NCBI GenBank assembly: GCA_026981825.1 | Contig: JALSID010000163.1 | Coordinates: 6,936 to 70,935 of the forward strand | Length of the DNA: 64,000 bases | Source of the DNA: Planctomycetota bacterium | GTDB lineage: Bacteria; Planctomycetota; Planctomycetia; JALXBF01 | Direction of reading: 5' to 3' | In this document: positions 17,201-50,237 of the stretch, piece after piece | How the letters are laid out: each line of letters opens with the position of its first letter | Position numbering within the stretch: position 1 is the first letter of the stretch | The notes under the pieces: model-generated | What the model was told of the DNA's origin: nothing | Database searches by the model: none | The model's input: only the letters and a program-made list of their open reading frames with translations | Position numbers and translations under genes: made by a program

Positions 17201-17475
17201 GGAAGCGCACGCCTGTCGTTTCCGAAAGAAGCCCGATTCCTTGCCGGGATGAAGGCTTAGGACGAACCGCTACGGGCGGCGTGGTCGATTCGCAAATCGC
17301 TGCTCGGGCCTTTCGCTTTCGATGCAGATCGCGGTACAATCGCTGCGCGTGATACCTTGCCTTGCATGCAACCGTGTGTTGTGCCCGCTACATGCCCGAT
17401 TCGCGGGACCAGATCGGGCGGTGCGGGGAAACGGATTGTGGCCCATGTGTCTCAGGACGCGCTGGGGGATTCATC

Positions 17476-18885
17476 GTGACGGTTTACGAGAGCGGTACGG
17501 CTACCGCTATCCGGCAGGAAGTTGCTGCACGTGTCGGCGAGACCCGGTACAAGCTCTGGTTTGCAGATAGTGCGAGGTTCGAACTGAATGAAACCGAAAA
17601 CGAACTGGTTGTCGGTGTTCCGAACCTGTTTTTCCAGGACTGGCTTGCGAACAACTTCCTCCCTCTACTGAAGGAGGTCGCCCAAAAGGTCGCCGGCCGT
17701 CCTCTGGCGGTACGGATTGTGGTGGACCCGGAGCTGTTCCACCGGATCCGTCGGAATGGGGAACCCCGGGAACGTCGGGCTGTTCTTCCCAGCGATTCCG
17801 CTTCCTCCTCAGAGGTAAACCAGCAGGCCCCCCGCTCGGAGGAGGCACCTCGCGACCGGTATACGTTCGACAATTTCGTGGTGGGACCGTGTAACGAGTT
17901 CGCCTTTTGTGCCTGCCGTGAAGTAGCACGGCGACCGGGAGCGGCCTTCAACCCCCTCGTCATATTTGGCCCCCTGGGGACAGGGAAGACTCACCTGCTC
18001 CGCGCGATCGCCAACGCCGTCAGCCAGGGCAAACGCCCCAGAAGGCCCCTTTACCTGACGAGCGAGACGTTCACCAACCGTTTCCTGGAAGCAATGGACA
18101 ATCGGCAGCTTGGTCGATTCCGCCGCGAGGTGCGCGGTGCCGACGTGCTCTTGCTGGACGACCTCCAATTCCTCACGCGAACGACTGCGACCCAGCGCGA
18201 GCTGCTCCATACGATCGACGAACTGGTCGGATCTCAAGCTCAGGTCGTCGTCGCCTCCGATCAGCACCCCTCCTATCTCACCTCGCTAAGCCCGTCGCTC
18301 CGCGAGCGGCTCATCACGGGAATGGCCTGTGAGCTTCATCTTCCTGATCGGGAAACTCGGGAGAAGGTTCTCCGCCTCAAGTCGGAGCGTCTGGGCTTGT
18401 CCCTCTCGGAACCGGTGCTGAACTTCGTGGTTGATAATGTGGCGGGCAGCATGCGGGAAGTAGAAGGCGCGTTGAACCGGCTGCTCGCGGTGGCTTCCCT
18501 CTCCGGTCGGAAACTCACCATCGACATCGCGCGTCAGGCGATTGCGGACCTGATCCGGCGGCAGCTGCGCCGGGTCACGATCCGCGACATCGAACGCAGC
18601 GTCTGCCAGCTCTTCCATCTGGACAGCAAGACGCTCCGGTCTCGTTCGCGGGCCAGCGGCGTGGTGTACCCCCGGCTCATCGCCATGTACCTGGCACGCA
18701 AACACACCGGCGCCTCCTATCAGGAAATCGGTCAGTACTTCGGCGGCCGGCTGCATACAACGGCCATCTCCGCCGAGAGACGGGTGCGAGAGCTGATCGA
18801 AAAGCACGCTGTCCTTCAGATTGGTGGTGCGCGCTGGTCGATTGATGACGTGGTAGCCGCGATCGAGCGTAGCCTAGGCGTCTGA
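17476..18885 (+). CDS. dnaA: chromosomal replication initiator protein DnaA
   Basis: N-terminal domain (YKLWFADSARFEL...LVVGVPNLFFQDWLANNF). AAA+ Walker A GPLGTGKTHLL, sensor and box motifs. C-terminal DNA-binding domain (...VYPRLIAMYLARKHTGASYQEIGQYFGGR.HTTAISAERRV). Start assigned to in-frame GTG 17476; alternatives are TTG 17362 or further upstream. Confidence 0.9.
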   Translation: MTVYESGTATAIRQEVAARVGETRYKLWFADSARFELNETENELVVGVPNLFFQDWLANNFLPLLKEVAQKVAGRPLAVRIVVDPELFHRIRRNGEPRERRAVLPSDSASSSEVNQQAPRSEEAPRDRYTFDNFVVGPCNEFAFCACREVARRPGAAFNPLVIFGPLGTGKTHLLRAIANAVSQGKRPRRPLYLTSETFTNRFLEAMDNRQLGRFRREVRGADVLLLDDLQFLTRTTATQRELLHTIDELVGSQAQVVVASDQHPSYLTSLSPSLRERLITGMACELHLPDRETREKVLRLKSERLGLSLSEPVLNFVVDNVAGSMREVEGALNRLLAVASLSGRKLTIDIARQAIADLIRRQLRRVTIRDIERSVCQLFHLDSKTLRSRSRASGVVYPRLIAMYLARKHTGASYQEIGQYFGGRLHTTAISAERRVRELIEKHAVLQIGGARWSIDDVVAAIERSLGV

Positions 18886-19121: not shown

Positions 19122-20177
19122 TCATTCCTGGTCCTGCGTGCTACTGGCGAGCTGCCTAGCCCACTGGCTATTGGGGTACTCCTGGAGCAGAAGCTCTCGG
19201 GCTTGTCTCGCCCGGTCCGGCCTTCCGGCCCTGGCCCACAGGTCGGACAAACGTGCCAGGGCCTCGGCGCGATACTGAGCCGCCTCGGGGAGCATAAGGT
19301 CGACATACAGATAGGCGAGAATCGCATCCATCACCTTGTCGGCCCGCTCGTACACCCGGCCAAGGGTAAGGAAAGCACGTGCGTTGACGGTTTCATTCTC
19401 CGGAGGAGCAGAGTCGATGACCACTCGCAGCTCCTTCACCGCCTCCTCGACCTCGCCACGTGCCGCCTTCACCTCCGCCATAAGCAAGCGGATGCGGAGC
19501 TTCAGTTCGTCCGAAAGGTTCTCTTTCCCGGACAAATCTGCCAGGATGGCCGCTGCCTCGTCGACGTTACCGCCGCGCATGAGCAGCTCTGCGCGGGCCA
19601 AAGCGGCTTCGACCTGGAAACCAGCGACAGGCGACTGCTCCAGCTCGGCAAGTGTCTGCTGGGCCACGTCCGTTTTGCCCAACGCAAGCTGCACGCGATA
19701 CAGCCAGTTCAACGCGGGGTAGTAGTGCCGAGTGTTCCTATGTTGGGCGATGAACTGCTTCAGGGCCCCTTCTGCGTCCGTCGCCTTGGCCGGGTCGACC
19801 TGGGCCCATTTTGCCAGAGCCCGCGCCCGTGCGAACTCGGCTGCGATTCGTACGAACGACCCCTCCGGCGCTTGCCTCAACGCCCTTTCATAGCTCTGCA
19901 CAGCATCCTCGTAATTGCCCGCCCTCTCCTTGAACCAAGCCTGCGCCAGTACCGCTCCGGTCGGGCCGTCGTACTGGATGCGCTCCACTTGGTCGACGCT
20001 CAATCGACGCGTGGCCCCCTCGGCAGTCGTGATCACCACCTCCGTGGGCCCTTCAGAGCGAACACTGCCACGCACGCGCCGGCCCCCTTTGAGGTAGACC
20101 AGGTCGTCCGCGGCGGCCGGCATGGCCAGCAAACACAGCAGGCCAACGTAGCTACCAAACGCCACAACACGGTTCAT
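19122..20177 (-). CDS. secreted TPR-like repeat protein
   Basis: Signal peptide MNRVVAFGSYVGLLCLLAMPAAADD, then TPR-like helical repeats. Confidence 0.7.
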   Translation of the reverse strand: MNRVVAFGSYVGLLCLLAMPAAADDLVYLKGGRRVRGSVRSEGPTEVVITTAEGATRRLSVDQVERIQYDGPTGAVLAQAWFKERAGNYEDAVQSYERALRQAPEGSFVRIAAEFARARALAKWAQVDPAKATDAEGALKQFIAQHRNTRHYYPALNWLYRVQLALGKTDVAQQTLAELEQSPVAGFQVEAALARAELLMRGGNVDEAAAILADLSGKENLSDELKLRIRLLMAEVKAARGEVEEAVKELRVVIDSAPPENETVNARAFLTLGRVYERADKVMDAILAYLYVDLMLPEAAQYRAEALARLSDLWARAGRPDRARQARELLLQEYPNSQWARQLASSTQDQE

Positions 20178-20425
20178 ACTCACACAGCTCCTCCACGGGT
20201 GGACAGGCCTCACCTGCAATTCTGCACCGCCCTGAACCGATCTGCAAGAGCTTCGCAGAAGGATTCGCCGTGGACTGTGGGCGGGCGCCAGGGACTTGCG
20301 CGGGAAACGTCGCGCCTCACGAGTCGCCCACGGTCGTTCGTGTACACTGGTAGTAGCGGTAAGGGACGGCGCCGCCTGTCAACGGTTGGCCTACCTGGTG
20401 ACGTATATGGCGGAGAGACTGGCCA

Positions 20426-21073
20426 ATGGAGCGCGAGAGGCTTGAGCCTGAGGTCCGGCCCGGCGATGGTCCCGATCTAACCGCGCCGAGCGAACGGGAA
20501 GCCGGTCATGACGCGTGGTTGGTGGAGCAGGCGAGGCGAGGCGACCAAGCCGCTTTTGAAGAGATCGTGCATCGCTATGAGCGACGCTTGACAAAGGCCC
20601 TCTACCACCTGGTCGGTGACATCGAAGTTGCTCGGGACATCGCGCAGGAGAGCTTCTTGCGGTTTTATCAGGCTCTACACCGGTTCGATGCGTCGCGGAG
20701 AGTGGGCCCGTGGCTGTTCCGGATCGCGGTGAACCTGGCGACGGACTGGCGCCGCCGCGGACGACACCTCTCCACGCGCGCCCGCGCGCAACAGCGCGGT
20801 GTTGAACCAACTTCCCAAGTGGGTTATCCCGAAGCAGACGATCGGGCACTGGCCGAGGAAGTACGACACGTGCTCAACCAGTTACCCGAGCCGTATCGAC
20901 TGGTGTTGGTGCTCCGCGAACTCGAGGGTCTCCCGAACTCCGAGATCGCGGCGATTACGGGACGGAAGGAGGCCACGATCCGCTGGCGACTGGCACAGGC
21001 GCGCCAGATGTTCAAGGAACTGTGGCATGCGAGGCTGAACGGTCACATATCGCATCCGAAGGACGATTCCTAG
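20426..21073 (+). CDS. ECF-family RNA polymerase sigma factor (sigma-70 regions 2 and 4)
   Basis: ...FEEIVHRYERRLTKALYHLVGDIEVARDIAQESFLRFYQALHRFD... (region 2) and ...LPEPYRLVLVLRELEGLPNSEIAAITGRKEATIRWRLAQAR (region 4). Confidence 0.85.
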   Translation: MERERLEPEVRPGDGPDLTAPSEREAGHDAWLVEQARRGDQAAFEEIVHRYERRLTKALYHLVGDIEVARDIAQESFLRFYQALHRFDASRRVGPWLFRIAVNLATDWRRRGRHLSTRARAQQRGVEPTSQVGYPEADDRALAEEVRHVLNQLPEPYRLVLVLRELEGLPNSEIAAITGRKEATIRWRLAQARQMFKELWHARLNGHISHPKDDS

Positions 21074-21077
21074 CGCC

Positions 21078-21689
21078 ATGTTCTCCTTCTTTCGAACCCA
21101 ATGGACCTGCCGCCGCGTGCGGAGGCGACTCCCCCTGCTCGTCGGCGGCGACCTAACAGGTCGTGAGCAGCTTCAGGTGGAAGCGCACGTCGCCTCATGT
21201 GAGCGGTGCAGGCAGGAGCTCTGTCAGTTCGAGCAGTCGGCAGCGGCCCTGCAAGCCCTGGCAGAATCGGACGCCGCCCTTGCGATCCCAAGCGTGCTTC
21301 CGGAGTTGCGCCGGCGGTTGGCCACTCCCCGCCCGTCCTCTATCCGAAGGGAGCACAGTTTCTCGGCGGCCGCCCTCGCTCTACTCGGAAGCCTGTCCGT
21401 AACGGCGATCGTCGTGGGAACCATGTTGGTACAGTGGGCGCCACCCGGTCGTGGTAACGGTCCGTCAGCGGGCGCTGAAACCGGTGGTAAAGTAGCGGCG
21501 ACGCCGACCCAAGCGGTACAGTCGTCAACCCGCCAAGCGGTGGCCGCCCAGCTTGACATGGCCGTGCTTGCCTCGAACGGTTCTCCTACGTCAGACGAAA
21601 CGGCCGTGTCCGATCAAACCCAGTGCCGATACACACTCGACCTGGCGACACCTATGGACGCGTACGAACCTGCACTGGATGAGTACTGA
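21078..21689 (+). CDS. zinc-finger (ZAS-type) anti-sigma factor with TM segment
   Basis: Starts 5 nt after sigma gene. H-x3-C-x2-C motif (HVASCERC). Central TM helix (AAALALLGSLSVTAIVVGTMLV). Confidence 0.65.
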   Translation: MFSFFRTQWTCRRVRRRLPLLVGGDLTGREQLQVEAHVASCERCRQELCQFEQSAAALQALAESDAALAIPSVLPELRRRLATPRPSSIRREHSFSAAALALLGSLSVTAIVVGTMLVQWAPPGRGNGPSAGAETGGKVAATPTQAVQSSTRQAVAAQLDMAVLASNGSPTSDETAVSDQTQCRYTLDLATPMDAYEPALDEY

Positions 21690-21996
21690 CGGGGGTGCAG
21701 AGGGTTTTGGGCTTGCGGACGGCAATTCCACCGTGTCAAGCACCGCTTCTTTACTGAGTTATTGTCGCCGTCAGCACCGCGATTCCCCCCGCGTCCACTG
21801 GTAAATCCGACTGCGAGCGGGGCTCGCACCGGGGGGGCGTTATACGGCGGATTGGCTCCCGCCATACCGGATTGGCGTCCAAATGCAAGCAAATGACGCC
21901 TTTTCAGCGTACTCCTGACTGGACATGATGTCCGCCAGTCGTCAGGGTAGGCGGTCGGTTTTTCCACAGGGTGCGGACCAGGGGCAATAGGAAACG

Positions 21997-23148
21997 ATGC
22001 TCCACCGATCGAAGCACCTTCTAAGTTGGTCGGCTTTGTTCGCCGCTCTCGCCCTGGCCGGGCGGGTTTCGGAACACGACTGCGCAAGCTGCGGTGGGGT
22101 GTGGAGCGAGGTGTACGAACAGGCGAAGCGGAGTGTTGTCACGGTAGAGTGCTTGCTACCCAAAGACGAGGGATATCAGGAGGTTCTCAGCGGCGTTGCC
22201 GTCGACAAAGGAGTGATCGTCACGGTTGGCCTGCGACCGGCCGGCCGTTCGCCCGTCCTGTGCGTTCGAGATTCCTCGGGGGTAACCCACGCCGCTACCT
22301 GGGTCGGTCTGGACCGGGACACCGGAATCGCTGTGCTGACGACAGAACCGGATGCGGTGCCACCGATCCCCCTGGCTACCACTGCCCCCAGGATTGGCCA
22401 GCCCATCCTCGTGGTTGGCAATCCATATGGGCTCCGGCTGAGCGCGAAACCGGGGGCGATTGCAGGTCTGAACCGGATGATCAAACTAGGTGGCCGGGTG
22501 CAAAGCGGACTTGTGCAACTTTCCGCCCCCGTCCATCCGGGCGACAACGGAGCGCCTGTGTGCAACTGCAGGGGAGAGATGGTAGCACTGATTCGCTCAG
22601 GCCTATCGATCGCCGGTCCTGATGGCAGCTACGCACAAGCAGACGACATAGCATTTGCAACTCCTGCAACGTTGGTACGGCAGGCGATTGACCGCGTCTT
22701 ACGCAGCGGTCCGAACGACCTGGCCATCCAGGTGGACCAGGCCTATTTCGGTATCGTTCCGACCACCACGACCACAGCAGATCCGGAAGGGCTACGCGTC
22801 CTGAAAGTAACCCCGCGCTCGCCTGCTGCAGAAGCGGGCTTGCGTGCCGGCGATGTGATTACCAATGTAGGTGGACACCGCGTCCGAACACCCGCGGACC
22901 TGGCGGCTGTTCTGGAGAAACACCCGCCTGGCAGTCTGGTTGAGGTGCGCTTCCGGAGGGGATCCGAATGGCACACGGTTCGGGTCGTTCTGGGGCGGCG
23001 GCGCCGGCCGGCCGGACCGACGGCTGCTCCGCGCTTCTCCCCGAAACCCGACCGGCTAAGACACCTGGAACAAGAGGTGAACAGGCTGAGGGAAGAGATT
23101 CGGCGGTTGCGACAGGCCCTGCGGGCCGGCCAAGGGGCGGAGAGTTGA
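21997..23148 (+). CDS. HtrA/DegP-like trypsin-fold + PDZ protein, apparently catalytically inactive
   Basis: Signal peptide. PDZ motif (GLRVLKVTPRSPAAEAGLRAGDVIT). Protease core aligns to DegP but has GDNGAP instead of GNSGGP (Ser to Asn) and lacks the TNNHV His motif. Confidence 0.75.
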   Translation: MLHRSKHLLSWSALFAALALAGRVSEHDCASCGGVWSEVYEQAKRSVVTVECLLPKDEGYQEVLSGVAVDKGVIVTVGLRPAGRSPVLCVRDSSGVTHAATWVGLDRDTGIAVLTTEPDAVPPIPLATTAPRIGQPILVVGNPYGLRLSAKPGAIAGLNRMIKLGGRVQSGLVQLSAPVHPGDNGAPVCNCRGEMVALIRSGLSIAGPDGSYAQADDIAFATPATLVRQAIDRVLRSGPNDLAIQVDQAYFGIVPTTTTTADPEGLRVLKVTPRSPAAEAGLRAGDVITNVGGHRVRTPADLAAVLEKHPPGSLVEVRFRRGSEWHTVRVVLGRRRRPAGPTAAPRFSPKPDRLRHLEQEVNRLREEIRRLRQALRAGQGAES

Positions 23149-23193: not shown

Positions 23194-23433
23194 TCATTCG
23201 CAGCACGGCTGACCCGTGAGTCGGCAACAATCGGGACCACAGGGGCCGGCGTCTTCGCGTGACGTAATCGGAAGCCTTCTTTGTCCTGCAGAACGGGCCG
23301 GCGCCGGTACGCTGAGCAGCTTTGTGACCGCGGTGCTGCGGCAGTCCGGACAGGCTGGGCGCTCATCGAATCGTCGGACGAGCGTCTCAAACTCTTTGCC
23401 ACACGCGTCGCAACGGAATTCGTAGATAGGCAT
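23194..23433 (-). CDS. FmdB-family zinc-ribbon regulatory protein
   Basis: MPIYEFRCDACGKEFE...CPDCRS: two CxxC pairs, classic FmdB N-terminus. Confidence 0.7.
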   Translation of the reverse strand: MPIYEFRCDACGKEFETLVRRFDERPACPDCRSTAVTKLLSVPAPARSAGQRRLPITSREDAGPCGPDCCRLTGQPCCE

Positions 23434-23545: not shown

Positions 23546-24238
23546 ATGGGTCGGGAATTACCACCGCTTAGCCGTGATCAGATTCGAGAAATCGATCGTC
23601 GCACCATCGAGGACCTGGGTTTACCCGGTATCGCGCTCATGGAGAATGCGGGGCGCGGGTGTGCGATGTGGCTGCGTGAAATGGGGGCCGTTGGTCCGGT
23701 GGTCATCTGTTGCGGCAAGGGCAATAACGCGGGGGACGGCTTTGTTGTCGCCCGCCATCTTGATGCTTGGGACATTCCGGTACACGTGGTTTTGACAAGT
23801 GACCCGGGCGAGCTCCGTGGGGACGCGGCGACCAACTTCGCCGTTATCGATCGCGCGTCGATCCCCTGGAGCGGGCCGGATCCTCGCCTGGACTCGGAGG
23901 AAACGCGAGCCCTTCTACACGACGCCCAATGGGTGGTGGACGCCCTGCTCGGCACTGGCACCAGGGGAACCATTCGAGAGCCGGTGGCCACCGCAATCGA
24001 ACAGATCAATGCCTGCCCCGCTCGACGGTTCTCGATCGACATACCCAGCGGACTCGATTGCGATTCGGGCCGACCGCTCGGTCCTACGGTACAGGCCGAC
24101 TGCACGGCTACGTTCGTGGCTGTGAAGAAGGGGTTCGTGAACCCGGAGGCGCATCGCTATCTGGGCGAGGTCCGGGTAATCGACATCGGCGTCCCGCGGG
24201 TGATTCTGGAGTTCTACCTGGAGGGCCAACGAGGCTGA
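23546..24238 (+). CDS. nnrE: NAD(P)H-hydrate epimerase (YjeF N-terminal domain)
   Basis: ICCGKGNNAGDGFVVARHL matches the YjeF-N GxGNNGGDG motif. Confidence 0.85.
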   Translation: MGRELPPLSRDQIREIDRRTIEDLGLPGIALMENAGRGCAMWLREMGAVGPVVICCGKGNNAGDGFVVARHLDAWDIPVHVVLTSDPGELRGDAATNFAVIDRASIPWSGPDPRLDSEETRALLHDAQWVVDALLGTGTRGTIREPVATAIEQINACPARRFSIDIPSGLDCDSGRPLGPTVQADCTATFVAVKKGFVNPEAHRYLGEVRVIDIGVPRVILEFYLEGQRG

Positions 24239-24337: not shown

Positions 24338-26080
24338 TCAAGGTACCACACTCAGCCATAGGGCCCACCAGCCCACCGCGGCAGCGGTAGCTCCCCAATC
24401 CACTGGCGGCACAAACACGACAGGGGGTACCGGATCACCAGGCCGGTGCAGCCCTTCCGTGGAGATGGGCTGCCAGGGGGGAGTAAGCCAGGCGCGGTAA
24501 GGCAAGAGCACGAAATCCGCGTAGAACTTGCCGGCCGACAGGAACGGCTGAAAGATGCCCACGTGGTTGCCGTACCGCTCTGCTGATATGTCGTCGAAGT
24601 AGACGGGCAGATGCCAGTTCACAGGAGCGACGTACGAGGCGGTCATCGGCGACCAGTCACGTGGCTTGGCGGGGACAGAATCCGGCCAGATGCGGATGGT
24701 GGGATAGGTGTCCAACTGCTGTTTCCGGAACTCTTCAGCGCGTGTGATGGCCACATTCACGTCATCGGTTAAGCTCTGGCCGACCCCCTCCTGTTCGGGG
24801 AGCAATCGTTCCAACGCCAGCTCCACTCGGTGCCGGTCGATGGCCAGTGGCGCTTGTTGTCGGGCTTGCTTTAGTGCGATGACGAGACGATCGGCAGTCA
24901 GGACGAGGGTTTCAAGCTGTTCGATCGCCTGGGCAACCCGCTGTTGAGCAATCGCGCAGCTTTCCACCGGATCAGGCACACGCATCACGCGGGTATGCTC
25001 CCGGCCGCAGATTGGGCAGGGAACCTCTTCGGTCTTGGTGACGTGTCCCTTCAGCACCTGTTCCGCATCCCAGAGCAAGAGGAAGACCGTGTCGATCTGG
25101 GTCTCTGCGGTGGCCAGAATAGCCCATGCATCGCGTTCCGCGTCGGTTGCTGGAGTGTGCGTGTCCACCTTCTGCTGGACCGCTTGGACGTCGGCTGAGA
25201 GCTGGGGAATCCGCTCCGCAGCAGCGCGCACATCGCTGTGAAGCTGTTGGAGGAGCGGAATTGCGTCGAACGCCGCTTTAAAGAGGGCCTGAAGTCGTTC
25301 TCCCCCCTCCGTCGGTGCGCAGGGTTGGAACACTTCGGTCCGCAAGGTCTCGAGTTGCTGGACAATCATGGCGCACTGGGTGCGCAATTGGTCCAGACGT
25401 CCGGCTGTCTCACGAAGCTCCTGCACGGTCGCCGTCAGTGGCTGCACACGTGGATCGTCGTCAGGAAGATTAGCGATCGCCTGGGACAATTGTGCAGCCG
25501 CCGCGTCAAGCTGCTCCCCGGTCAGGTCGAGGAACCCCACCGTTCCCAGTCCGCGCTCTCGTCCAGGTGGCCCGAGGAGAAGAGCTGCGATGCGGATGAG
25601 CCGGTGGACGCGAAGCCAATCCGATGCATTCGGGCCGCCCTCTTGGGCCGCCTTTTGCAGCGTTTCCAGCAAACGGATCGCTTCGGACAGGGCAGCCTCG
25701 GCATCTCGAGCCCGCTGCAGGGCGTTGCCCTGCGGCGAAGGCTCACCCGAGTCTCCCAGGTAACGCACCGCATTCTCCAGGGCAAATGCGCCGGCCAGAC
25801 GAAGTAAGCGGCGGCTCGCCAGGATGCGTGAATTGGCCGAGCGGACACTGGCCCGAATGCTCTCCAGTTTTGACTCCCGTTCCAGACGCTCAAACAGGAC
25901 AGCCTCGGTCTCGAGCCGCGCGAACTGGAAAATGTCGCTGATCAGCTCTGGCGTCGGCTCCACCGGATACCGATACGCCTTGGACCGTGAACTGCTCGAT
26001 TCCTGCTGCGCGGGCGCCGTCTGCTGCGCAAGCAGGGCGAACGCGATCACAAGGCCGCCCAGTTCAATCCAGGTCGCCAT
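24338..26080 (-). CDS. secreted coiled-coil hypothetical protein with CPICG zinc-ribbon-like motif
   Basis: Signal peptide [20 protein letters not shown]; long Q/A/L/E-rich helical region; CPICGREH. Start overlaps 3' end of guaB by 17 nt. Confidence 0.6.
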
Positions 26081-27545
26081 CCGTGTACTCCGATACGGTT
26101 GTGTAGTTGGGCGCTTCCTGGGTAATCGCCACATCGTGGGGATGGCTCTCCACAACCCCCGCTGCCGTGACTTCCACAAACCGGCTCCGGCTGCGGAGCT
26201 CCTCGATATTGCGTGTACCCGCGTAGCCCATCCCTGCACGCAGGCCACCGACGAGCTGGTACACGATCTCGGCCAACGGCCCCTTGTACGGGACCCGCCC
26301 CTCTACCCCCTCGGGAACCAGCTTCTCCGGTCTCGTCCCGCTCTGGCGGTAGCGATCGCTCGAGCCGCTAACCATTGCGCCCAACGATCCCATGCCTCGG
26401 TACAGTTTGAAGCGGCGTCCCTTGTAGATGATCAGTCTTCCAGGGCTCTCGGCCGCCCCCGCGAACAAACCGCCCAGCATGACCGCGTGGGCCCCGGCAG
26501 CGATTGCCTTCGTGATATCGCCGGAGTACCGAATACCTCCGTCCGCGATGATGCGGACGCCGGTGCCCTGTACGGCCCGTGCCGCTTCGGCAATTGCCGT
26601 CAACTGCGGCACCCCAACGCCAGAGACCACCCGAGTCGTGCAAATCGAGCCCGGGCCGATGCCTACCTTAACTGCATCGGCACCGGCCTCTACCAGAGCT
26701 TTAGCGCCGTCGTAGGTGGCTACGTTGCCCGCTATGACCTCGCAGCCATACCGGTTCTTGATCTCTCGCACCGTCTCCAGCACATTGCGGGAATGGCCGT
26801 GCGCCGAGTCCACCACGATGACATCAACATCCGCCTCCAACAGTTTCTCAACTCGCTCGAAGTCGTAAACCCCAACTGCAGCCCCCACCCGCAGCCGGCC
26901 GCGATCGTCCTTGCTGGCATGGGGAAAGCGGTGCATCTTGTCGATGTCCTTGATCGTGATCAATCCCCTCAGCTTGTACTCTTCGTCCACCAGCAACAGC
27001 TTCTCGACCTTATTACGCATCAGGATCCGTTCTGCCTCTTCCAGGGTCGTCGTCTCCGGCGCAGTGACCAGGTTGTCCTTGGTCATCACCTGCTCGATGG
27101 GTGTATCGTCGGCTTCGTGGAACCGAAGGTCGCGCCGGGTGAGGATGCCGCGGAGCCGGTTGTCCTCATCCACAATCGGGACACCGCTGATGTTCTGCCG
27201 CTCCATCACCTCTCGGGCTTCCCGCACCGTCTGCCAGGGATGCAAAGTCACCGGATCCACGATAATGCCGCTCTCCGAACGTTTGACCTTGTACACCTCC
27301 TGCGCCTGCTCCTCGATCGACATGTTCTTGTGGATCACGCCCAGGCCACCCTCCTGAGCTAAAGCAATGGCAAGATCCGCTTCGGTGACGGTATCCATGG
27401 GGGCAGATAGCAGCGGAATGCGCAGACGGATGGTGGGTGTGATCCACGTGCTCGTGTCCGCATCACGCGGCAGGAAATCGCTGTAGCCCGGCAACAAGAA
27501 CACGTCGTCAAAGGTCACGCCGCGCAGCACGATTCGCTCACGCAT
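26064..27545 (-). CDS. guaB: inosine-5'-monophosphate dehydrogenase
   Basis: [20 protein letters not shown]-terminus; tandem CBS domains; catalytic loop [11 protein letters not shown]. Confidence 0.95.
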
Positions 27546-45620: not shown

Positions 45621-48600
45621 ATGGCAGCAAGAAGCGGGCGGGCAGGACGGCAAATGATGGCGACCTCTGCCGGAAGGCTGTTTAGGGAGCTCCTGGTCTG
45701 GTTTGCAACGGTACTGGGTCTTGCCGTTTGCACGGCAGGCGGTGAGCCGGTTCAAGGAAGGTCGTCGATTGATTTTGGACGCGACGTTGCACCGATCCTG
45801 CAGCAAAGGTGTCTGCGCTGTCACGGTCCGCGGCTGCAGCAGAACGGTCTGCGGCTTGATGTGCCGGAGGGGGCGTTCAAGGGCGGTCGGAGCGGACCTG
45901 CGGTGGTACCGGGAGCGCCCGAAAGGAGCCCCCTGTACCGTCGAATAACCGCTCGCGACGAAAACGAACGGATGCCCCGCAACGGTCCACCGCTGTCGGC
46001 TGCCGAAATCGCCACCATACGGCGGTGGATTGAAGAGGGGGCGATTTGGCCGCCTGGCTATACGATCGAATGGAACCCCGCGGCGGAGCACTGGGCGTAC
46101 CGACCGATCGCAAAGCCGCGGGTACGGTTACCCCGTCGAAGCACGCGGGCCCGCTCCCCCATTGACGCGTTTGTCCTTGAACGGCTGGCCGAAGCCAACA
46201 TGGAGCTCTCCCAGCCTGCCCCCCAGCCCGTGCTCCTCAGGCGGGTTTTCCTCGATCTGATCGGCATTCCCCCGTCGCCGGAGTTCGCGGCAGAGTACCT
46301 GGCCGACCGGCGACCGGATAAGTTCGACCGTCTCGTGGACCGATTGCTTGCCTCGCCTGCATTCGGTGAAAAGTGGGCCCGGTCCTGGCTGGACGCAGCT
46401 CGCTACGCGGACAGCAACGGCTACCAGGCCGACCAATACCGGGAAGTGTGGCCGTACCGCGATTGGGTCATCCGTGCGATTAACCAGGATATGCCGTTCG
46501 ATCAATTCACCATCGAACAGCTCGCCGGAGACCTCCTGCCTTCTGCGACGATTGATCAGCGCGTGGCCACCGGCTTCTCCCGCTTGACGACCTGCAATGT
46601 CGAAGCAGGTGTCGACCCTGAGGAAAACCGAGTCGAGCAGGTGGTCGATCGGGTGAACACGGTGGCCACCGTATGGCTGGGCACAACGCTGGAATGCGCA
46701 CAGTGCCACGACCACAAGTACGACCCCTTCTCCATGCGGGACTACTACAGTCTTTTCGCTTTCTTCAACAACACCCCCCTGGAAGTCGAGGGGGACGGCG
46801 TGACTTACAACTTCGTCGGCCCGAAGATGGAGCTTCCTTTGCCCCCCGAAGTGGCCCGCCAACGCGCGACGCTCCTGAAACGCCTTAAGCAGCTCCGTGG
46901 AAAGCTAGACGACTCGGTCGCTACCGCGATCGACAAACTGCGCCAGGCGGTGACAACAAGGGCAGACCCCCCCTGGACGATACTCCGACCGGTGGAGTTC
47001 TCCTCAGCGTCTGGCGTGGACGCCAAGCTGCTGGATGACGGCTCCGTGTTGGTACTCGGCGAACCCGCTGACACGGACACGTACCGTGTGCGGTTCGAAC
47101 TCCAGGCCGGGCTCGTCGGAGCGATTCGCCTGGAGGCGCTCACCCACCCAGGCTTACCGGGAATGGGCCCTGGTTTGCACAGTTCCGAGCGACCCAATTT
47201 CGTGCTGAACGAAATCCGTGTTTGGCTTCTGGTCCATGATGAGCGCATCGAGCTTCCGCTGGCCGCCGCTTCAGCGGACTATGCCGCTCCGAACTACGGC
47301 CCGGCAAAGGCCATCGACGGGAACGGCCGCACCGGTTGGGCAATCCATCCCCAGTTCGCGAAGGACCACTGGATCGAGTTGCGCCTGGGTCGGCCGTATC
47401 CGGCGCAAGAGGGGGCCATACTGGAGTGCGAGTTGGTCCAGACCCATGGGGGTGGTCGGCTTCTTGGCCGCTTCCGCGTGCTAGCCGCCCCCGCGGCGCC
47501 CGTTCGAGTGCCAAAAGCTATTGAGAACGCGCTTCGCAAAGAACCCGATCAGCGCTCGAAGCAAGAGCAGAAGCAGCTCCGTGAGTATGCCGTTCAGAAA
47601 GATCCGGAACTGGCGGAGCTTGCCAGGGAAATCGAGGAGCTGGAGAAGGAGGTCACCAAGCTCCGGCCCCCAACAACGCTCGTCATGGTTGAGCTACCGA
47701 AGCCCAGGACGACGCACATCTTGATCCGAGGCGACTACCGCACGCCGGGCGACGTGGTCAAACCGGATGTGCCGGCGATTCTGCCCCCCATGAAGGCGGA
47801 ATATCCCCGCAATCGTCTGGGGCTGGCGTTCTGGTTAGTTGATGCCCGCAATCCGCTTGTTGCACGGGTCACGGTGAACCGGTGGTGGACGGAGCTGTTT
47901 GGCAGGGGCATTGTGCCGACGCCCGGCGATTTCGGCACGCAGGGCGAGCCACCATCGCACCCCAGGCTTCTGGATTGGTTGGCAAGCGAGCTTCGCCGGC
48001 ACGGTTGGTCCAGGAAGCGCCTGCTGCGAACGATCGTGACTTCCGCGGTCTACGGCCAGGACTCGAAGATCACGCCCGAGCACCTCCGGCGCGATCCCCA
48101 GAACCGTCTGCTGTCCCGGGCACCCCGGTACCGATTGCCCGCTGAAACCATCCGTGATCAAGCTCTGGAGGTAAGCGGGTTACTCACACGCGTGATGGGT
48201 GGCCCACCGGTATATCCCCCTCAGCCCGAAGGGATCTGGCGCCATGTGGGGCGGAATGCGCCCATGTACAAAACGTCGGTGGGGCGGGACCGGTTCCGCC
48301 GGGGCATCTATGTCATTTGGCGGCGTAGTGCCCCGTACCCCTCGTTCGTGAATTTCGACGCGCCGGATCGGACGAGTTGCGTCGTCCAGCGTCCGTTGAG
48401 CAACACCCCCCTACAAGCTCTAACCCTGATGAACGACCAACAGTACGCCGAGTTCGCCTTGGGGCTGGCGTTGCGAGCAGTGCAAGCGGTTCCGGAGCAT
48501 CGGGACGAGGCCCGGATTGAGTACGCATTCCGATGCTGTCTCGTGCGATCCCCCAGTGCGACGGAGAAGTACGTGTTGCTGGAGCTCTTACGGGAGGAAC

Positions 48601-48779
48601 GGAATCGGTTGCGGGCTCAACCGATAGATGCGTTTCAGCGGCTCGAACCCCTGCTGCCCTTCGTATGGCCAGGTCGTGATGCTAGTGACCTGACGGAGGA
48701 CGAGGCCGTAGAACTCGCTTCACTCTGGGCGGTAGGCAACGTGTTGCTGAACCTGGACGAAACGATCAACCGTGAGTGA
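45621..48779 (+). CDS. PSCyt1/DUF1549/DUF1553 (planctomycete cytochrome-c domain) protein
   Basis: Signal peptide. CLRCHGP heme-binding-like PSCyt motif near the N-terminus. Long DUF1549/DUF1553 body. The CAQCHDHKYDP motif is typical of the family. Confidence 0.9.
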   Translation: MAARSGRAGRQMMATSAGRLFRELLVWFATVLGLAVCTAGGEPVQGRSSIDFGRDVAPILQQRCLRCHGPRLQQNGLRLDVPEGAFKGGRSGPAVVPGAPERSPLYRRITARDENERMPRNGPPLSAAEIATIRRWIEEGAIWPPGYTIEWNPAAEHWAYRPIAKPRVRLPRRSTRARSPIDAFVLERLAEANMELSQPAPQPVLLRRVFLDLIGIPPSPEFAAEYLADRRPDKFDRLVDRLLASPAFGEKWARSWLDAARYADSNGYQADQYREVWPYRDWVIRAINQDMPFDQFTIEQLAGDLLPSATIDQRVATGFSRLTTCNVEAGVDPEENRVEQVVDRVNTVATVWLGTTLECAQCHDHKYDPFSMRDYYSLFAFFNNTPLEVEGDGVTYNFVGPKMELPLPPEVARQRATLLKRLKQLRGKLDDSVATAIDKLRQAVTTRADPPWTILRPVEFSSASGVDAKLLDDGSVLVLGEPADTDTYRVRFELQAGLVGAIRLEALTHPGLPGMGPGLHSSERPNFVLNEIRVWLLVHDERIELPLAAASADYAAPNYGPAKAIDGNGRTGWAIHPQFAKDHWIELRLGRPYPAQEGAILECELVQTHGGGRLLGRFRVLAAPAAPVRVPKAIENALRKEPDQRSKQEQKQLREYAVQKDPELAELAREIEELEKEVTKLRPPTTLVMVELPKPRTTHILIRGDYRTPGDVVKPDVPAILPPMKAEYPRNRLGLAFWLVDARNPLVARVTVNRWWTELFGRGIVPTPGDFGTQGEPPSHPRLLDWLASELRRHGWSRKRLLRTIVTSAVYGQDSKITPEHLRRDPQNRLLSRAPRYRLPAETIRDQALEVSGLLTRVMGGPPVYPPQPEGIWRHVGRNAPMYKTSVGRDRFRRGIYVIWRRSAPYPSFVNFDAPDRTSCVVQRPLSNTPLQALTLMNDQQYAEFALGLALRAVQAVPEHRDEARIEYAFRCCLVRSPSATEKYVLLELLREERNRLRAQPIDAFQRLEPLLPFVWPGRDASDLTEDEAVELASLWAVGNVLLNLDETINRE

Positions 48780-48788
48780 TCAGGTGCC

Positions 48789-50237
48789 ATGGGAAGCGGG
48801 CGTCGTTTTCAAGCTGATGCAGAGTTGCTCACCAGGCTAACCCGGCGCGAGCTGCTCGGGCGGGTTGGCATCGGCGTAGGTCCGGTGGCGCTCACCTGGC
48901 TATTGCATCGCGAGGCGGCCGCTGCGGGGCATGCGCATCGAACGGATCCCCTACGTGCACGGCCCGCTCCGTACAGGCCCCGGGTGCGGAGCGTGATCCA
49001 CTTGCATATGGTCGGGGCACCGTCACAGCTTGACTTGTTTGACCCGAAGCCGGTCCTGCGGAAGTACGATGGCGAGCCGTGTCCGAAGGAGTTCATCGAA
49101 GGGAAGAGGTTCGCGTTTCTGCGCGGACATCCGAAACTGCTGGGCTCGCCGTTCCGCTTCCGCCCCTGCGGGGAATCTGGCATCCCGCTCTCGGAACTGC
49201 TGCCCCACCTGGGCAGCGTGGTCGACCGACTTGCCTTCGTGAAGACGGTGCGAACCTCGGAGTTCAACCACGGCCCAGCTCAGCTCTTCCTCCACACGGG
49301 GTTCCCACGTTTTGGGCGTCCCAGCATGGGGGCCTGGGTGACGTACGGCCTGGGGACCGAAAATGAAAACCTCCCCGCCTACGTGGTAATGATCACGGGC
49401 CAGAAACCAGGAGCCGGAAACGCTCTGTGGGGAGCCGGGTTCCTGCCCAGCATCTACCAGGGGGTCGAATTCCGCAGTAAGGGCGATCCTGTGCTGTTCC
49501 TCTCCAACCCGGCCGGTGTGACCCGGCAAGATAGGCGACGGATCCTGGACGCCACGGTCCGCCTCAATCGGCAGCATCTCGCGCTGGTTGGAGACCCGGA
49601 GATCCAGACACGCATCGGTCAGTACGAGCTTGCGTTTCGCATGCAGACGGCGGTCCCGGACCTCATGGACATTCGACAGGAGCCCCTGCACATCTTGAAG
49701 ATGTACGGTGCCGATCCGGCCCGCCCGTCGTTCGCGAACAACTGTCTGCTGGCGCGGCGGCTGGTAGAGCGCGGTGTTCGGTTCGTGCAACTGTTCGACC
49801 AAGGCTGGGATCACCACAGCGGCTTGGCCAAGAACCTGCCCAACAAGTGCCGCCAGGTCGACCGTCCTGTTGCGGCGTTGATCCGTGACCTCGACCAGCG
49901 GGGGCTGCTTGACGAAACCCTCGTTGTATGGGCTGCCGAGTTCGGTCGCACCCCCATGCTGCAGGGAAGCGCGTCACGAAACGCGGGTCGGGACCATCAT
50001 CGGGAAGCGTTCACGGTGTGGTTCGCAGGAGGGGGCATCCGAGGCGGTACGGTTTACGGCCAAACGGACGACCTGGGCTACTACCCGGCGGAGAATCCGG
50101 TGGACATCCATGACCTGCACGCCACCATGTTGCATCTGCTGGGGATCGACCACACGAAGTTAACCTACCGGTTCCAGGGGCGGGAGTTCCGTCTGACGGA
50201 TATCGGCGGCCGGATCATCACAGGTATCCTCGTCTGA
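48789..50237 (+). CDS. DUF1501 (sulfatase-like) protein with twin-arginine signal
   Basis: [14 protein letters not shown] Tat motif. DUF1501 core; the classic partner gene follows the DUF1549/1553 gene 10 bp downstream. Confidence 0.9.

What the first reader, a model, noticed from the sequence alone, without database searches (positions are those of the whole stretch)
20426..23148. ECF sigma / ZAS anti-sigma / catalytically dead HtrA-PDZ triad
The layout mirrors AlgU-MucA-...-MucD and RpoE-RseA-DegP envelope-stress modules. The HtrA homologue here has Asn in place of the nucleophilic Ser (GDNGAP vs GNSGGP) and lacks the His-containing TNNHV motif, while keeping the Asp region and an intact PDZ domain. 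It looks like a pseudo-protease that could act as a PDZ-based sensor or adaptor rather than a protease.
Basis: partly seen in the sequence, partly recalled or inferred. Interest (0 to 1): 0.55.

Follow-up and report, generated by a model that had tools for sequence, protein, structure and literature searches.

The report
Dead HtrA protease in sigma-factor operon
A three-gene stress-signalling operon of a planctomycete bacterium (a sigma factor, its membrane anti-sigma factor and a DegS/DegP-like protein that has lost its catalytic residues) belongs to a large uncharacterised family, and the anti-sigma factor ends in a conserved peptide that looks like a tethered ligand for the dead protease's PDZ domain.

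Summary
The three + strand genes are real: an RpoE/SigW-like ECF sigma (20426-21073), a single-pass ZAS anti-sigma (21078-21689) and a secreted HtrA-like protein with one PDZ domain (21997-23148).

It was wrong that the Asp is kept: the catalytic Asp is Gly110. The retained D106 is a non-catalytic Asp conserved in all HtrAs.

This is not a sequencing error. A 60%-identical relative has Asn from a different codon.

The protein belongs to a family of at least 74 clusters at 50% identity, the identifiable ones in Planctomycetota, many of them Isosphaeraceae. All of them lack His and have Gly for Asp. 85% keep the Ser; the rest have A, N, G, L or T.

In every locus with enough upstream DNA (about 28), the gene follows a ~50%-identical sigma and an anti-sigma. 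One conserved ECF-type promoter lies before the sigma.

New here: the anti-sigma's otherwise disordered periplasmic part ends in a conserved peptide (RYxxDLxxGTPMPP...KPxY-COOH). The last residue is aromatic in 27 of 28 loci and 49 of 51 database homologues.

Best reading: a non-catalytic DegS-derived partner that holds the anti-sigma tail. I rate it a new variant of a known kind. The function is inferred, not shown.

The parts
20378..20407 (+). ECF-type promoter: -35 GTCAACG (20378-20384), 17-nt spacer, -10 CGTATA (20402-20407), 19 nt before the sigma start codon
   Evidence: Dyad enrichment in 27 upstream regions: CCAAC/CAACG-N16-18-CGTA(T) occurs in 13-18 sequences against at most 7 in shuffles. 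The aligned motif is (A-tract)[TC]CAACG-N16-17-CGTATCATAAT. It occurs once per ~13-kb locus, always just upstream of the sigma. The window copy is the only one near the module.
20426..21073 (+). ECF (group IV) sigma factor, 215 aa, RpoE/AlgU/SigW-like
   Evidence: Pfam Sigma70_r2 and r4_2. NCBIfam sigma70-ECF superfamily, 84 bits against a cut-off of 42.9. Nearest solved structures are AlgU 6in7, SigW 5wuq and RpoE 1or7. Homologues 44-68% identical lie upstream of the pseudo-HtrA in all informative loci.
21078..21689 (+). Single-pass ZAS anti-sigma factor, 203 aa. Cytoplasmic anti-sigma domain is residues 1-85, with Zn ligands C11, H37, C41 and C44. TM helix is 97-120 (21366-21437). The periplasmic tether is disordered.
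   Evidence: zf-HC2 2.9e-10. C11/H37/C41/C44 are invariant in A5. Weak match to RsiW 5wuq_C. AF2: helices 2-82 with pLDDT above 90 for blocks 11-60, helix 97-120, and 121-203 with pLDDT around 45-55.
21624..21686 (+). Conserved C-terminal tail of the anti-sigma (CRYTLDLATPMDAYEPALDEY-COOH). Proposed tethered ligand for the pseudo-HtrA PDZ or cleft.
   Evidence: It is the only conserved periplasmic segment. D186, L187 and Y203 are nearly invariant. The terminal residue is Y or F in 27 of 28 loci and in 49 of 51 full-length database homologues.
21997..23148 (+). Secreted HtrA-family pseudo-protease, 383 aa. Signal peptide is about residues 1-21. Helix 29-44 carries H-D-C-x-S-C. The chymotrypsin-fold domain is about 47-237, the PDZ 248-335 and the C-terminal coiled coil 351-382.
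   Evidence: Pfam Trypsin_2 and PDZ. AF2 pLDDT 85.8. Foldseek top hits are Deg1, DegP, DegS, MucD and AlgW, E about 1e-25 to 1e-20.
22231..22236 (+). L79-R80: the position of the catalytic His (TNNHV in active HtrAs, TVGLRP here)
   Evidence: Alignments. The family has A, G, S, T, R, D or P here and never His.
22324..22326 (+). G110: the position of the catalytic Asp (DegS D126)
   Evidence: Gly in 100% of the family against Asp in 100% of 66 canonical HtrAs.
22546..22548 (+). N184 (AAC): the position of the nucleophilic Ser (DegS S201)
   Evidence: The family has S 63, A 4, N 3, G 2, L 1 and T 1 among 74 members.
22738..23001 (+). PDZ domain with an intact carboxylate-binding loop (Y250-F251-G252-I253)
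   Evidence: PDZ_2, PDZ_6 and PDZ hits. G252, G265, A277, G281, G285, D286 and R321 are conserved at the level of canonical HtrAs.
23047..23142 (+). C-terminal amphipathic helix with a 3-4 hydrophobic spacing (L355, L358, V362, L365, I369, L372, L376). Probable coiled coil.
   Evidence: AF2 helix 351-382. L371 is family-specific, 94% conserved. The element is present in P0002-P0006.

Best explanation
This is a conserved, probably autoregulated three-gene operon of Planctomycetota. An RpoE/SigW-like ECF sigma factor is held at the membrane by a single-pass zinc-finger (ZAS) anti-sigma factor. The third gene encodes a secreted protein derived from a DegS/DegP-type HtrA protease. It keeps the chymotrypsin fold, the oxyanion-hole loop, one PDZ domain and a C-terminal coiled coil, but it has lost the catalytic His and Asp in the whole family, and here also the Ser. 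It therefore cannot work as a serine protease.

The periplasmic part of the anti-sigma factor is a disordered tether. Its only conserved element is a roughly 20-residue C-terminal peptide ending in a free aromatic residue, which is the kind of ligand HtrA PDZ domains bind (compare OMP YxF with DegS).

Most likely mechanism (inferred): the pseudo-protease docks onto this tail through its PDZ domain, and possibly also through the dead substrate cleft. It would then act as a non-catalytic partner that gates regulated proteolysis of the anti-sigma factor, much as RseB/MucB do. A plausible trigger is competition from the exposed C-termini of unassembled envelope proteins.

Shown by computation: gene identities, loss of the triad, family-wide conservation, synteny, the promoter motif and conservation of the tail. 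Inferred: physical binding, the direction of control and the signal.
For: - Domains.
- Triad loss: L79/R80, G110 and N184 against DegP, DegQ and DegS.
- Model: HtrA fold at pLDDT 85.8, with DegS, DegP, Deg1, MucD and AlgW as the best structural matches.
- Family: 74 to 82 clusters (by how strictly the family is defined) at 50% identity with no His and Gly for Asp. The Ser position is S 63, A 4, N 3, G 2, L 1 and T 1. That pattern fits loss of catalytic constraint with structural retention.
- The Asn is real: AAC here, AAT in a 60%-identical relative, and an independent Logan assembly differs from the window at 1 of 7152 bases.
- Synteny: sigma, anti-sigma and pseudo-HtrA on one strand in all ~28 loci with upstream DNA, and in 0 of 8 canonical proteobacterial HtrA loci.
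- Promoter: a single conserved ECF-type motif before the sigma and none before the pseudo-HtrA.
- Anti-sigma: ZAS ligands invariant, periplasmic region disordered, and a conserved tail with an aromatic C-terminus in 27 of 28 loci and 49 of 51 homologues.
- PDZ: ligand-binding landmarks conserved as in active HtrAs.
Against: - There is no direct evidence of binding.
- 85% of the family keep the Ser and the GD-S-G loop. This could mean a residual chemical role rather than pure scaffolding.
- One relative (L006/P0005) has an anti-sigma without the terminal aromatic.
- In the window a 308-nt spacer with a weak terminator-like hairpin separates the anti-sigma and pseudo-HtrA genes, so co-transcription is not certain here.
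- The tail could instead be read by another PDZ protein, such as a Prc/Ctp-type protease or an RseP-type site-2 protease.
- Neither the site-1 nor the site-2 protease has been identified.
Confidence: 0.55

Rival explanations
1. Output, not input. The pseudo-HtrA is simply a member of the sigma regulon. It would serve as a protease-free periplasmic holdase or chaperone for envelope proteins, as DegP S210A does, with no contact to the anti-sigma factor.
For: DegP is a sigma-E regulon member and its Ser-to-Ala mutant keeps chaperone activity (established knowledge). The fold, the PDZ domain and probable oligomerisation elements are retained. The gene lies in the autoregulated operon.
Against: It does not explain why the only conserved periplasmic element of the co-encoded anti-sigma is a PDZ-type C-terminal peptide. 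It also does not explain why the linkage to this particular sigma and anti-sigma pair is kept in all ~28 loci across large divergence.
Confidence: 0.2
2. Adaptor for an active protease. The pseudo-HtrA binds the anti-sigma tail and presents it to an active HtrA paralogue, as a mixed oligomer, or to another protease. It would then be a positive regulator, as MamO promotes MamE-dependent proteolysis.
For: MamO, an HtrA pseudoprotease, is needed for MamE-dependent processing independently of its own triad (PMC4794232). Trimer-forming features and a coiled coil are retained. The tail evidence is the same as in the best explanation.
Against: No active HtrA gene lies in the module or in the window. 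The sign of regulation cannot be derived from sequence.
Confidence: 0.15
3. It is still a hydrolase that uses a non-canonical mechanism, for example a retained Ser with another base, or invariant S201/R200.
For: Ser is kept in 85% of the family. The GD-S-G-A loop and an invariant R200-S201-G202 motif are conserved.
Against: The family has no invariant His or Lys. Asp is replaced by Gly in 100% of members. The Ser itself is replaced by N, A, G, L or T in 11 of 74 members, including this one.
Confidence: 0.04
4. Artefact or decaying gene: a sequencing error at the Ser codon, or a pseudogene on its way out.
For: AAC (Asn) differs from AGC (Ser) by one base.
Against: The ORF is intact and the AF2 model is confident. 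An identical protein is recovered in an independent assembly. Asn is encoded by AAT in a 60% relative. The whole family is conserved with its partners.
Confidence: 0.01

Closest known systems
E. coli sigma-E / RseA / RseB / DegS (with DegP as regulon member)
   Same: An RpoE-like ECF sigma (1or7 among the best sequence matches). A single-pass anti-sigma factor. An HtrA-fold protein with one PDZ domain, for which DegS-peptide complexes are among the best structural matches. Recognition logic based on a free aromatic C-terminus.
   Different: DegS has an active triad and is encoded elsewhere. RseA is not a ZAS protein. The aromatic C-terminus belongs to OMPs, not to the anti-sigma itself. Here the HtrA homologue is catalytically dead and sits in the operon, so it resembles RseB in its likely role and DegS in ancestry. 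No RseB/MucB domain is present.
P. aeruginosa AlgU-MucA-MucB-MucC-MucD
   Same: The sigma is closest to AlgU (6in7, 7.4e-22). An HtrA-family gene lies in the same operon as the sigma and anti-sigma. MucD and AlgW are among the structural matches.
   Different: MucD is an active protease with two PDZ domains. MucB and MucC homologues are absent. MucA is not ZAS. The site-1 protease AlgW is unlinked.
B. subtilis SigW-RsiW
   Same: SigW is the third-best solved match to the sigma. RsiW is the only solved match to the anti-sigma. RsiW is a membrane-spanning ZAS-type anti-sigma removed by regulated intramembrane proteolysis (established knowledge).
   Different: No HtrA-like partner. Site-1 cleavage is by PrsW. 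The RsiW extracellular domain is unrelated to the tail described here.
M. tuberculosis sigE-rseA-htrA (Rv1221-Rv1223)
   Same: The gene order is the same: ECF sigma, ZAS anti-sigma, HtrA (own knowledge; not verified with the tools beyond Rv1223 being an essential HtrA-like protein). Mtb SigE and HtrA are among the sequence matches.
   Different: Rv1223 keeps its triad. RseA is cytoplasmic and is degraded by ClpC1P2 after phosphorylation (PMC3062566).
MamO (magnetotactic bacteria)
   Same: An HtrA-family pseudoprotease retained for a non-catalytic role. It is a precedent that dead HtrAs can promote or regulate another protein's processing (PMC4794232).
   Different: MamO is fused to a TauE transporter domain, binds metal through a di-His site, keeps His and Asp, and is unrelated to sigma-factor signalling.

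Membership tests
HtrA / MEROPS S1C serine protease (active enzyme) | His-Asp-Ser catalytic triad in register | tested here: not met
   L79/R80, G110 and N184 occupy the three positions. The family has no invariant His.
HtrA / MEROPS S1C serine protease (active enzyme) | Chymotrypsin-fold protease domain followed by at least one C-terminal PDZ domain | tested here: met
   Pfam Trypsin_2 and PDZ. AF2 pLDDT 85.8. Foldseek probability 1.00 to DegP, DegS, Deg1, MucD and AlgW. By homology it is a non-peptidase homologue of S1C.
ECF (group IV) sigma factor | Only regions sigma-2 and sigma-4, about 200 aa | tested here: met
   Sigma70_r2 at 48-113 and r4_2 at 144-194, with no r3 or r1 hit. TIGR02937 scores above its cut-off.
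ECF (group IV) sigma factor | Autoregulated promoter with an AAC-type -35 and a CGT-type -10 | tested here: met
   A conserved [TC]CAACG-N16-17-CGTAT lies upstream of the sigma in at least 18 loci. Use of this promoter by this sigma is not testable here.
ZAS (zinc-binding) anti-sigma factor | H-x3-C-x2-C plus an upstream Cys or His ligand in an N-terminal anti-sigma domain | tested here: met
   C11, H37, C41 and C44 are invariant in 22 to 24 sequences. zf-HC2 2.9e-10.
ZAS (zinc-binding) anti-sigma factor | Zinc binding and binding to the cognate sigma | not testable with these tools
   Needs biochemistry.
RpoE-RseA-DegS-RseP type regulated intramembrane proteolysis | Site-1 cleavage of the anti-sigma by an active PDZ-protease | tested here: not met
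   The only HtrA homologue in the module lacks the triad. No other protease gene adjoins it.
RpoE-RseA-DegS-RseP type regulated intramembrane proteolysis | Site-2 protease (RseP/RasP) in the genome | not tested
   None among the window ORFs scanned. The rest of the genome is not available.
AlgU-MucABCD operon | An RseB/MucB-family periplasmic binder encoded after the anti-sigma | tested here: not met
   No MucB_RseB domain. The gene after the anti-sigma is the pseudo-HtrA.
MamO-type pseudoprotease | A degenerate HtrA domain fused to TauE, with a surface di-His metal site | tested here: not met
   No TauE domain. The protein is 383 aa with a PDZ domain and a coiled coil. The di-His site was not examined.

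The most novel reading that the evidence does not exclude
A previously undescribed mode of ECF control. A DegS-derived pseudo-enzyme holds the anti-sigma factor by its own OMP-mimicking aromatic C-terminus. Envelope stress would be sensed by competitive displacement of that tethered tail by the C-termini of unassembled outer-membrane proteins, exposing the anti-sigma factor to proteolysis. In this picture the sensing half of DegS has been kept and the cutting half discarded.
Probability: 0.3. Interest if true: 0.75.

Novelty: new variant of a known kind. Interest (0 to 1): 0.6.

Why it matters
ECF sigma/anti-sigma pairs with an HtrA protease are the textbook model of envelope-stress signalling. 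In that model the HtrA protein (DegS, AlgW) is the enzyme that starts the cascade.

Here a whole phylum-wide family has kept the operon and the fold, the PDZ domain and the oxyanion loop of the HtrA protein, but has discarded the catalytic His and Asp. Its partner anti-sigma factor has acquired a conserved PDZ-type C-terminal tail.

If the two bind, this would be a clear bacterial case of a protease turned into a pseudo-enzyme regulator of a transcription pathway. It would also be an RseB-like function arrived at from a DegS-like ancestor.

The prediction is simple to test (peptide binding, tail deletion, reporter on the TCAACG-N17-CGTAT promoter). The module occurs in at least two named strains (Singulisphaera sp. 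PoT, Paludisphaera soli JC670). It also gives a handle on signal transduction in Planctomycetota, whose envelope biology is still debated.

Tried and rejected
- AF2 on a fusion of the pseudo-HtrA, a GS linker and the anti-sigma tail, with paired homologues (A4), to test docking. Binding therefore remains untested.
- A canonical RpoE-type promoter ([GT]GAAC-N15-19-CGT[ACT]) upstream of the sigma was not found consistently. An unbiased dyad count then gave the real motif.
- I looked for the same promoter before the pseudo-HtrA gene and elsewhere in the window. Only the copy before the sigma is credible. The loose pattern gives 9 matches against 5 expected, and none lies in the intergenic spacers of other loci.
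- The 308-nt spacer at 21690-21996 has no significant RNA structure (z = -1.0), no conservation with relatives and no Rfam family. There are no tRNAs in the window.
- I checked for an alternative catalytic His. H98 aligns with a buried Phe/Tyr/Leu of canonical HtrAs and is itself variable. H180 is H, Y or F across the family. Both were rejected.
- An anammox attribution was suggested by an HZS_alpha-domain gene in L003. I dropped it: the related genome record is labelled only Planctomycetota, and the window shows generic planctomycete markers.
- Literature searches for this family or for a dead HtrA in an ECF module found nothing specific. The ECF reclassification paper's supplement, Jogler 2012 and Wiegand 2020 are not held. 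I therefore could not check whether the ECF group and its Trypsin/PDZ neighbour are already catalogued.
- NCBIfam has no dedicated model. All HtrA hits are far below their cut-offs.
Full report
**What is there.** Three consecutive + strand ORFs occupy 20426-23148.
- The first (215 aa) has sigma-70 regions 2 and 4 only and passes the ECF superfamily model. Its nearest solved relatives are AlgU (6in7), SigW (5wuq), RpoE (1or7) and M. tuberculosis SigE.
- The second (203 aa) starts 4 nt after the first ends and has a zf-HC2 domain.
- The third (383 aa) follows a 308-nt spacer. It has a Trypsin_2 domain and one PDZ domain and matches DegP, DegQ, DegS, HhoA, MucD and HtrA2 chains at E = 1e-28 to 1e-11.
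- The window is planctomycetal: it carries a PSCyt1/PSCyt2/PSD1 plus DUF1501 gene pair and its relatives are Planctomycetota MAGs.

**The active site.** I took E. coli degP, degQ and degS from MG1655 and aligned them with the protein and its relatives.
- DegS H96/D126/S201 and DegP H131/D161/S236 (precursor numbering) fall in the same three columns.
- At the His column the window protein has L79/R80 (TVGLRP instead of TNNHV). There is no His anywhere in residues 54-97.
- At the Asp column it has G110 (DTGIAV instead of SDIAL).
- At the Ser column it has N184 (GDNGAP instead of GNSGG).
That is the non-catalytic Asp of the G-x-D motif, which every HtrA has.
- The AF2 model is confident (pLDDT 85.8). 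Its best structural matches are Deg1, DegP, DegS-peptide complexes, MucD and AlgW. The alignment therefore rests on a genuine HtrA fold.
- The Asn is not an error. The codon is AAC here and AAT in a 60%-identical relative from another sample. An independent assembly of the window's locus differs from it at 1 of 7152 bases.

**The family.** A word-indexed search gave five close relatives (60-38% identity) and then an abrupt drop to ordinary HtrAs.
- A profile of these six sequences, run against 1.8 billion cluster representatives, returned many more.
- After aligning the hits to a common HMM, 82 proteins have Gly at the Asp column and no His. Of these, 74 also have the GD-x-G loop.
- In those 74 the nucleophile position is S 63, A 4, N 3, G 2, L 1 and T 1.
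- So His and Asp are missing from every member, while the Ser has been lost only in scattered members. The window protein sits at the far end of this decay.
- Family-specific conserved positions include G110 (100% Gly against 100% Asp in 66 canonical HtrAs), D183, G157, G171, L172, E51 and L371 in the C-terminal helix.
- PDZ landmarks, including the carboxylate-binding L/F-G, are as conserved as in active enzymes.
- No His or Lys is invariant.

**Gene neighbourhood.** I examined contigs encoding four close relatives and 37 loci from species-representative genomes by tblastn with the window's proteins.
- Every locus with a family-type HtrA and enough upstream DNA has a 44-68% identical sigma 1.4-2.3 kb upstream on the same strand, with one ORF in between. 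This covers about 28 loci, mostly labelled Isosphaeraceae or Planctomycetaceae, including Singulisphaera sp. PoT and Paludisphaera soli.
- None of the eight canonical HtrA loci from Proteobacteria and Oligoflexia that the same scan picked up has it.
- An unbiased count of gapped dyads in 27 sigma-upstream regions found (A-tract)-[TC]CAACG-N16-17-CGTAT(CATAAT). This is a typical ECF architecture (AAC-type -35, CGT-type -10), present in 13-18 regions against at most 7 in shuffles.
- The motif occurs once per locus, always before the sigma and never before the pseudo-HtrA.
- The window copy is GTCAACG-N17-CGTATA at 20378-20407.
- The three genes therefore look like one autoregulated operon. In the window itself, however, the 308-nt spacer, which is unstructured and not conserved, leaves room for doubt.

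**The anti-sigma factor.** In 22 to 24 aligned homologues, C11, H37, C41 and C44 are invariant. These are the RsrA-type ZAS ligand positions. The only solved match is the membrane ZAS protein RsiW.
- AF2 gives a helical cytoplasmic domain (pLDDT above 90), a TM helix at 97-120 and a disordered periplasmic part at 121-203.
- Within that variable, low-complexity periplasmic part only the last ~20 residues are conserved. In Isosphaeraceae they read R-Y-D-F-D-L-E-H-G-T-P-M-P-P-E-T-R-x-x-K-P-x-Y-COOH. In the window they read C-R-Y-T-L-D-L-A-T-P-M-D-A-Y-E-P-A-L-D-E-Y-COOH.
- The final residue is Tyr, or Phe in one lineage, in 27 of 28 loci. The exception is L006. It is Y or F in 49 of 51 full-length homologues from the 5.8-billion-protein collection.
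- A conserved, disordered peptide with a free aromatic C-terminus is the kind of ligand that HtrA PDZ domains read (established knowledge: OMP Y-x-F for DegS, W-V-F of MucE for AlgW).

**Mechanism.** What is shown: a secreted HtrA-fold protein that cannot be a His-Asp-Ser protease is inherited together with an RpoE/SigW-like sigma and a membrane ZAS anti-sigma whose only conserved extracytoplasmic feature is a PDZ-type tail.
- What I infer: the pseudo-protease binds that tail and so controls access of the real proteases to the anti-sigma factor. This would be an RseB/MucB-like role evolved from a DegS-like ancestor. Displacement by the C-termini of unassembled envelope proteins is an attractive trigger. 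My confidence in this reading is about 0.55.
- Rivals:
  - a protease-free chaperone that is merely a regulon member (0.2);
  - an adaptor that hands the anti-sigma factor to an active HtrA or another protease, as MamO assists MamE (0.15; PMC4794232);
  - a non-canonical hydrolase (0.04);
  - an artefact (0.01).
- The retained Ser in 85% of members and the invariant R200-S201-G202 strand suggest that the peptide-binding cleft, not chemistry, is what selection preserves. This is not proven.

**Comparison with known systems.** The module works like the RpoE-RseA-RseB-DegS and AlgU-MucA-MucB-MucD systems in its parts list. It shares gene order with M. tuberculosis sigE-rseA-htrA (own knowledge). 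It fails the defining test of each:
- there is no active site-1 HtrA;
- there is no RseB/MucB domain;
- the anti-sigma is ZAS-type, as in SigW-RsiW.

It is a non-peptidase homologue of MEROPS S1C, not an HtrA protease. The one characterised bacterial HtrA pseudoprotease I found, MamO, differs in architecture, retained residues and biology.

**Novelty.** I found no paper on this family, and neither Pfam nor NCBIfam has a dedicated model. I could not consult the ECF Hub group descriptions, which may already list the neighbourhood. I rate it a new variant of a known kind, with moderate to good interest. It gives a crisp, testable hypothesis for a pseudo-enzyme in sigma-factor signalling that spans a whole phylum.

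Noticed in passing
window 22081-22092, 22150-22152, 22261-22263, 22588-22596 (pseudo-HtrA residues C29, C32, C52, C89, C198, C200): The window's sub-clade (P0001-P0005) shares six cysteines that the Isosphaeraceae members lack. They are H-D/E-C-x-S-C-G-G at the N-terminus of helix 29-44 (a CxxC placed as in thiol-redox proteins), VTVEC, LC(V/I)R, and VCNC right after the dead active-site loop. They could be disulfides, a metal site or a redox site in a periplasmic protein.
   Followed up: partly
window 19122-20219 (-): A TPR protein next to the sigma gene is 52-53% identical to the gene in the same position in L003 and L004. There it is on the same strand as the sigma; here it is divergent. 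This points to a local inversion around a conserved neighbour.
   Followed up: partly
window 23194-23433 (-) and 23546-24238 (+): A divergent pair, an FmdB-type Zn-ribbon protein and a YjeF_N (NAD(P)HX epimerase) protein, follows the module here and lies within a few kb of it in many Isosphaeraceae loci as well (L010, L013, L016, L019, L023, L030, L037, L039, L041).
   Followed up: partly
window 17362-18885 (+): dnaA lies 1.5 kb upstream of the module, as it also does in L004. The module may therefore sit close to the replication origin. The 2-kb GC-skew profile shows no clear switch.
   Followed up: no
L009 and L021 (both contigs of MAG CAWCPP01): One genome carries two paralogous sigma / anti-sigma / pseudo-HtrA modules, each with the conserved anti-sigma tail.
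   Followed up: no
P0098, P0113, P0124, P0157, P0164, P0170, P0181, P0210: The profile search surfaced a second group of degenerate HtrA homologues. They are long multi-PDZ proteins (640-850 aa) with G-S-F-G-G-P (Phe for the nucleophilic Ser) and no His/Asp pair. This would be another apparent pseudo-protease family, of unknown taxonomy.
   Followed up: no
L006 1824-2597 (anti-sigma of the P0005 relative): This is the only anti-sigma without the aromatic C-terminus (it ends ...STAHDTKAQ) although it keeps the RYRLD start of the tail. Its partner's PDZ helix motif is also atypical (SEAEGCALEPGD instead of SPAAxAGLRAGD).
   Followed up: partly
L013, L019, L024, L027 (N-termini of pseudo-HtrA homologues): Several Isosphaeraceae members begin their mature part with a lipobox-like ...[AS]-C-G. 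They may be lipoproteins rather than soluble periplasmic proteins like the window's (A-L-A/G signal-peptidase I site).
   Followed up: no
window 24338-26248 (-): A 636-aa ORF with no Pfam match is conserved in position in the closest relative (L005, 580 aa, also no Pfam hit).
   Followed up: no
window 45621-50237 (+): A typical planctomycete PSCyt1/PSCyt2/PSD1 (DUF1549/DUF1553) plus DUF1501 gene pair. It is useful as a taxonomic marker for the window.
   Followed up: yes
L003 12794-13110 and 8892-10790: The contig of relative P0004 carries a 937-aa protein with an HZS_alpha (hydrazine synthase alpha-like) domain and a NapC/NirT plus multihaem cytochrome pair a few kb downstream of the module. 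This is not enough to call the lineage anammox.
   Followed up: no
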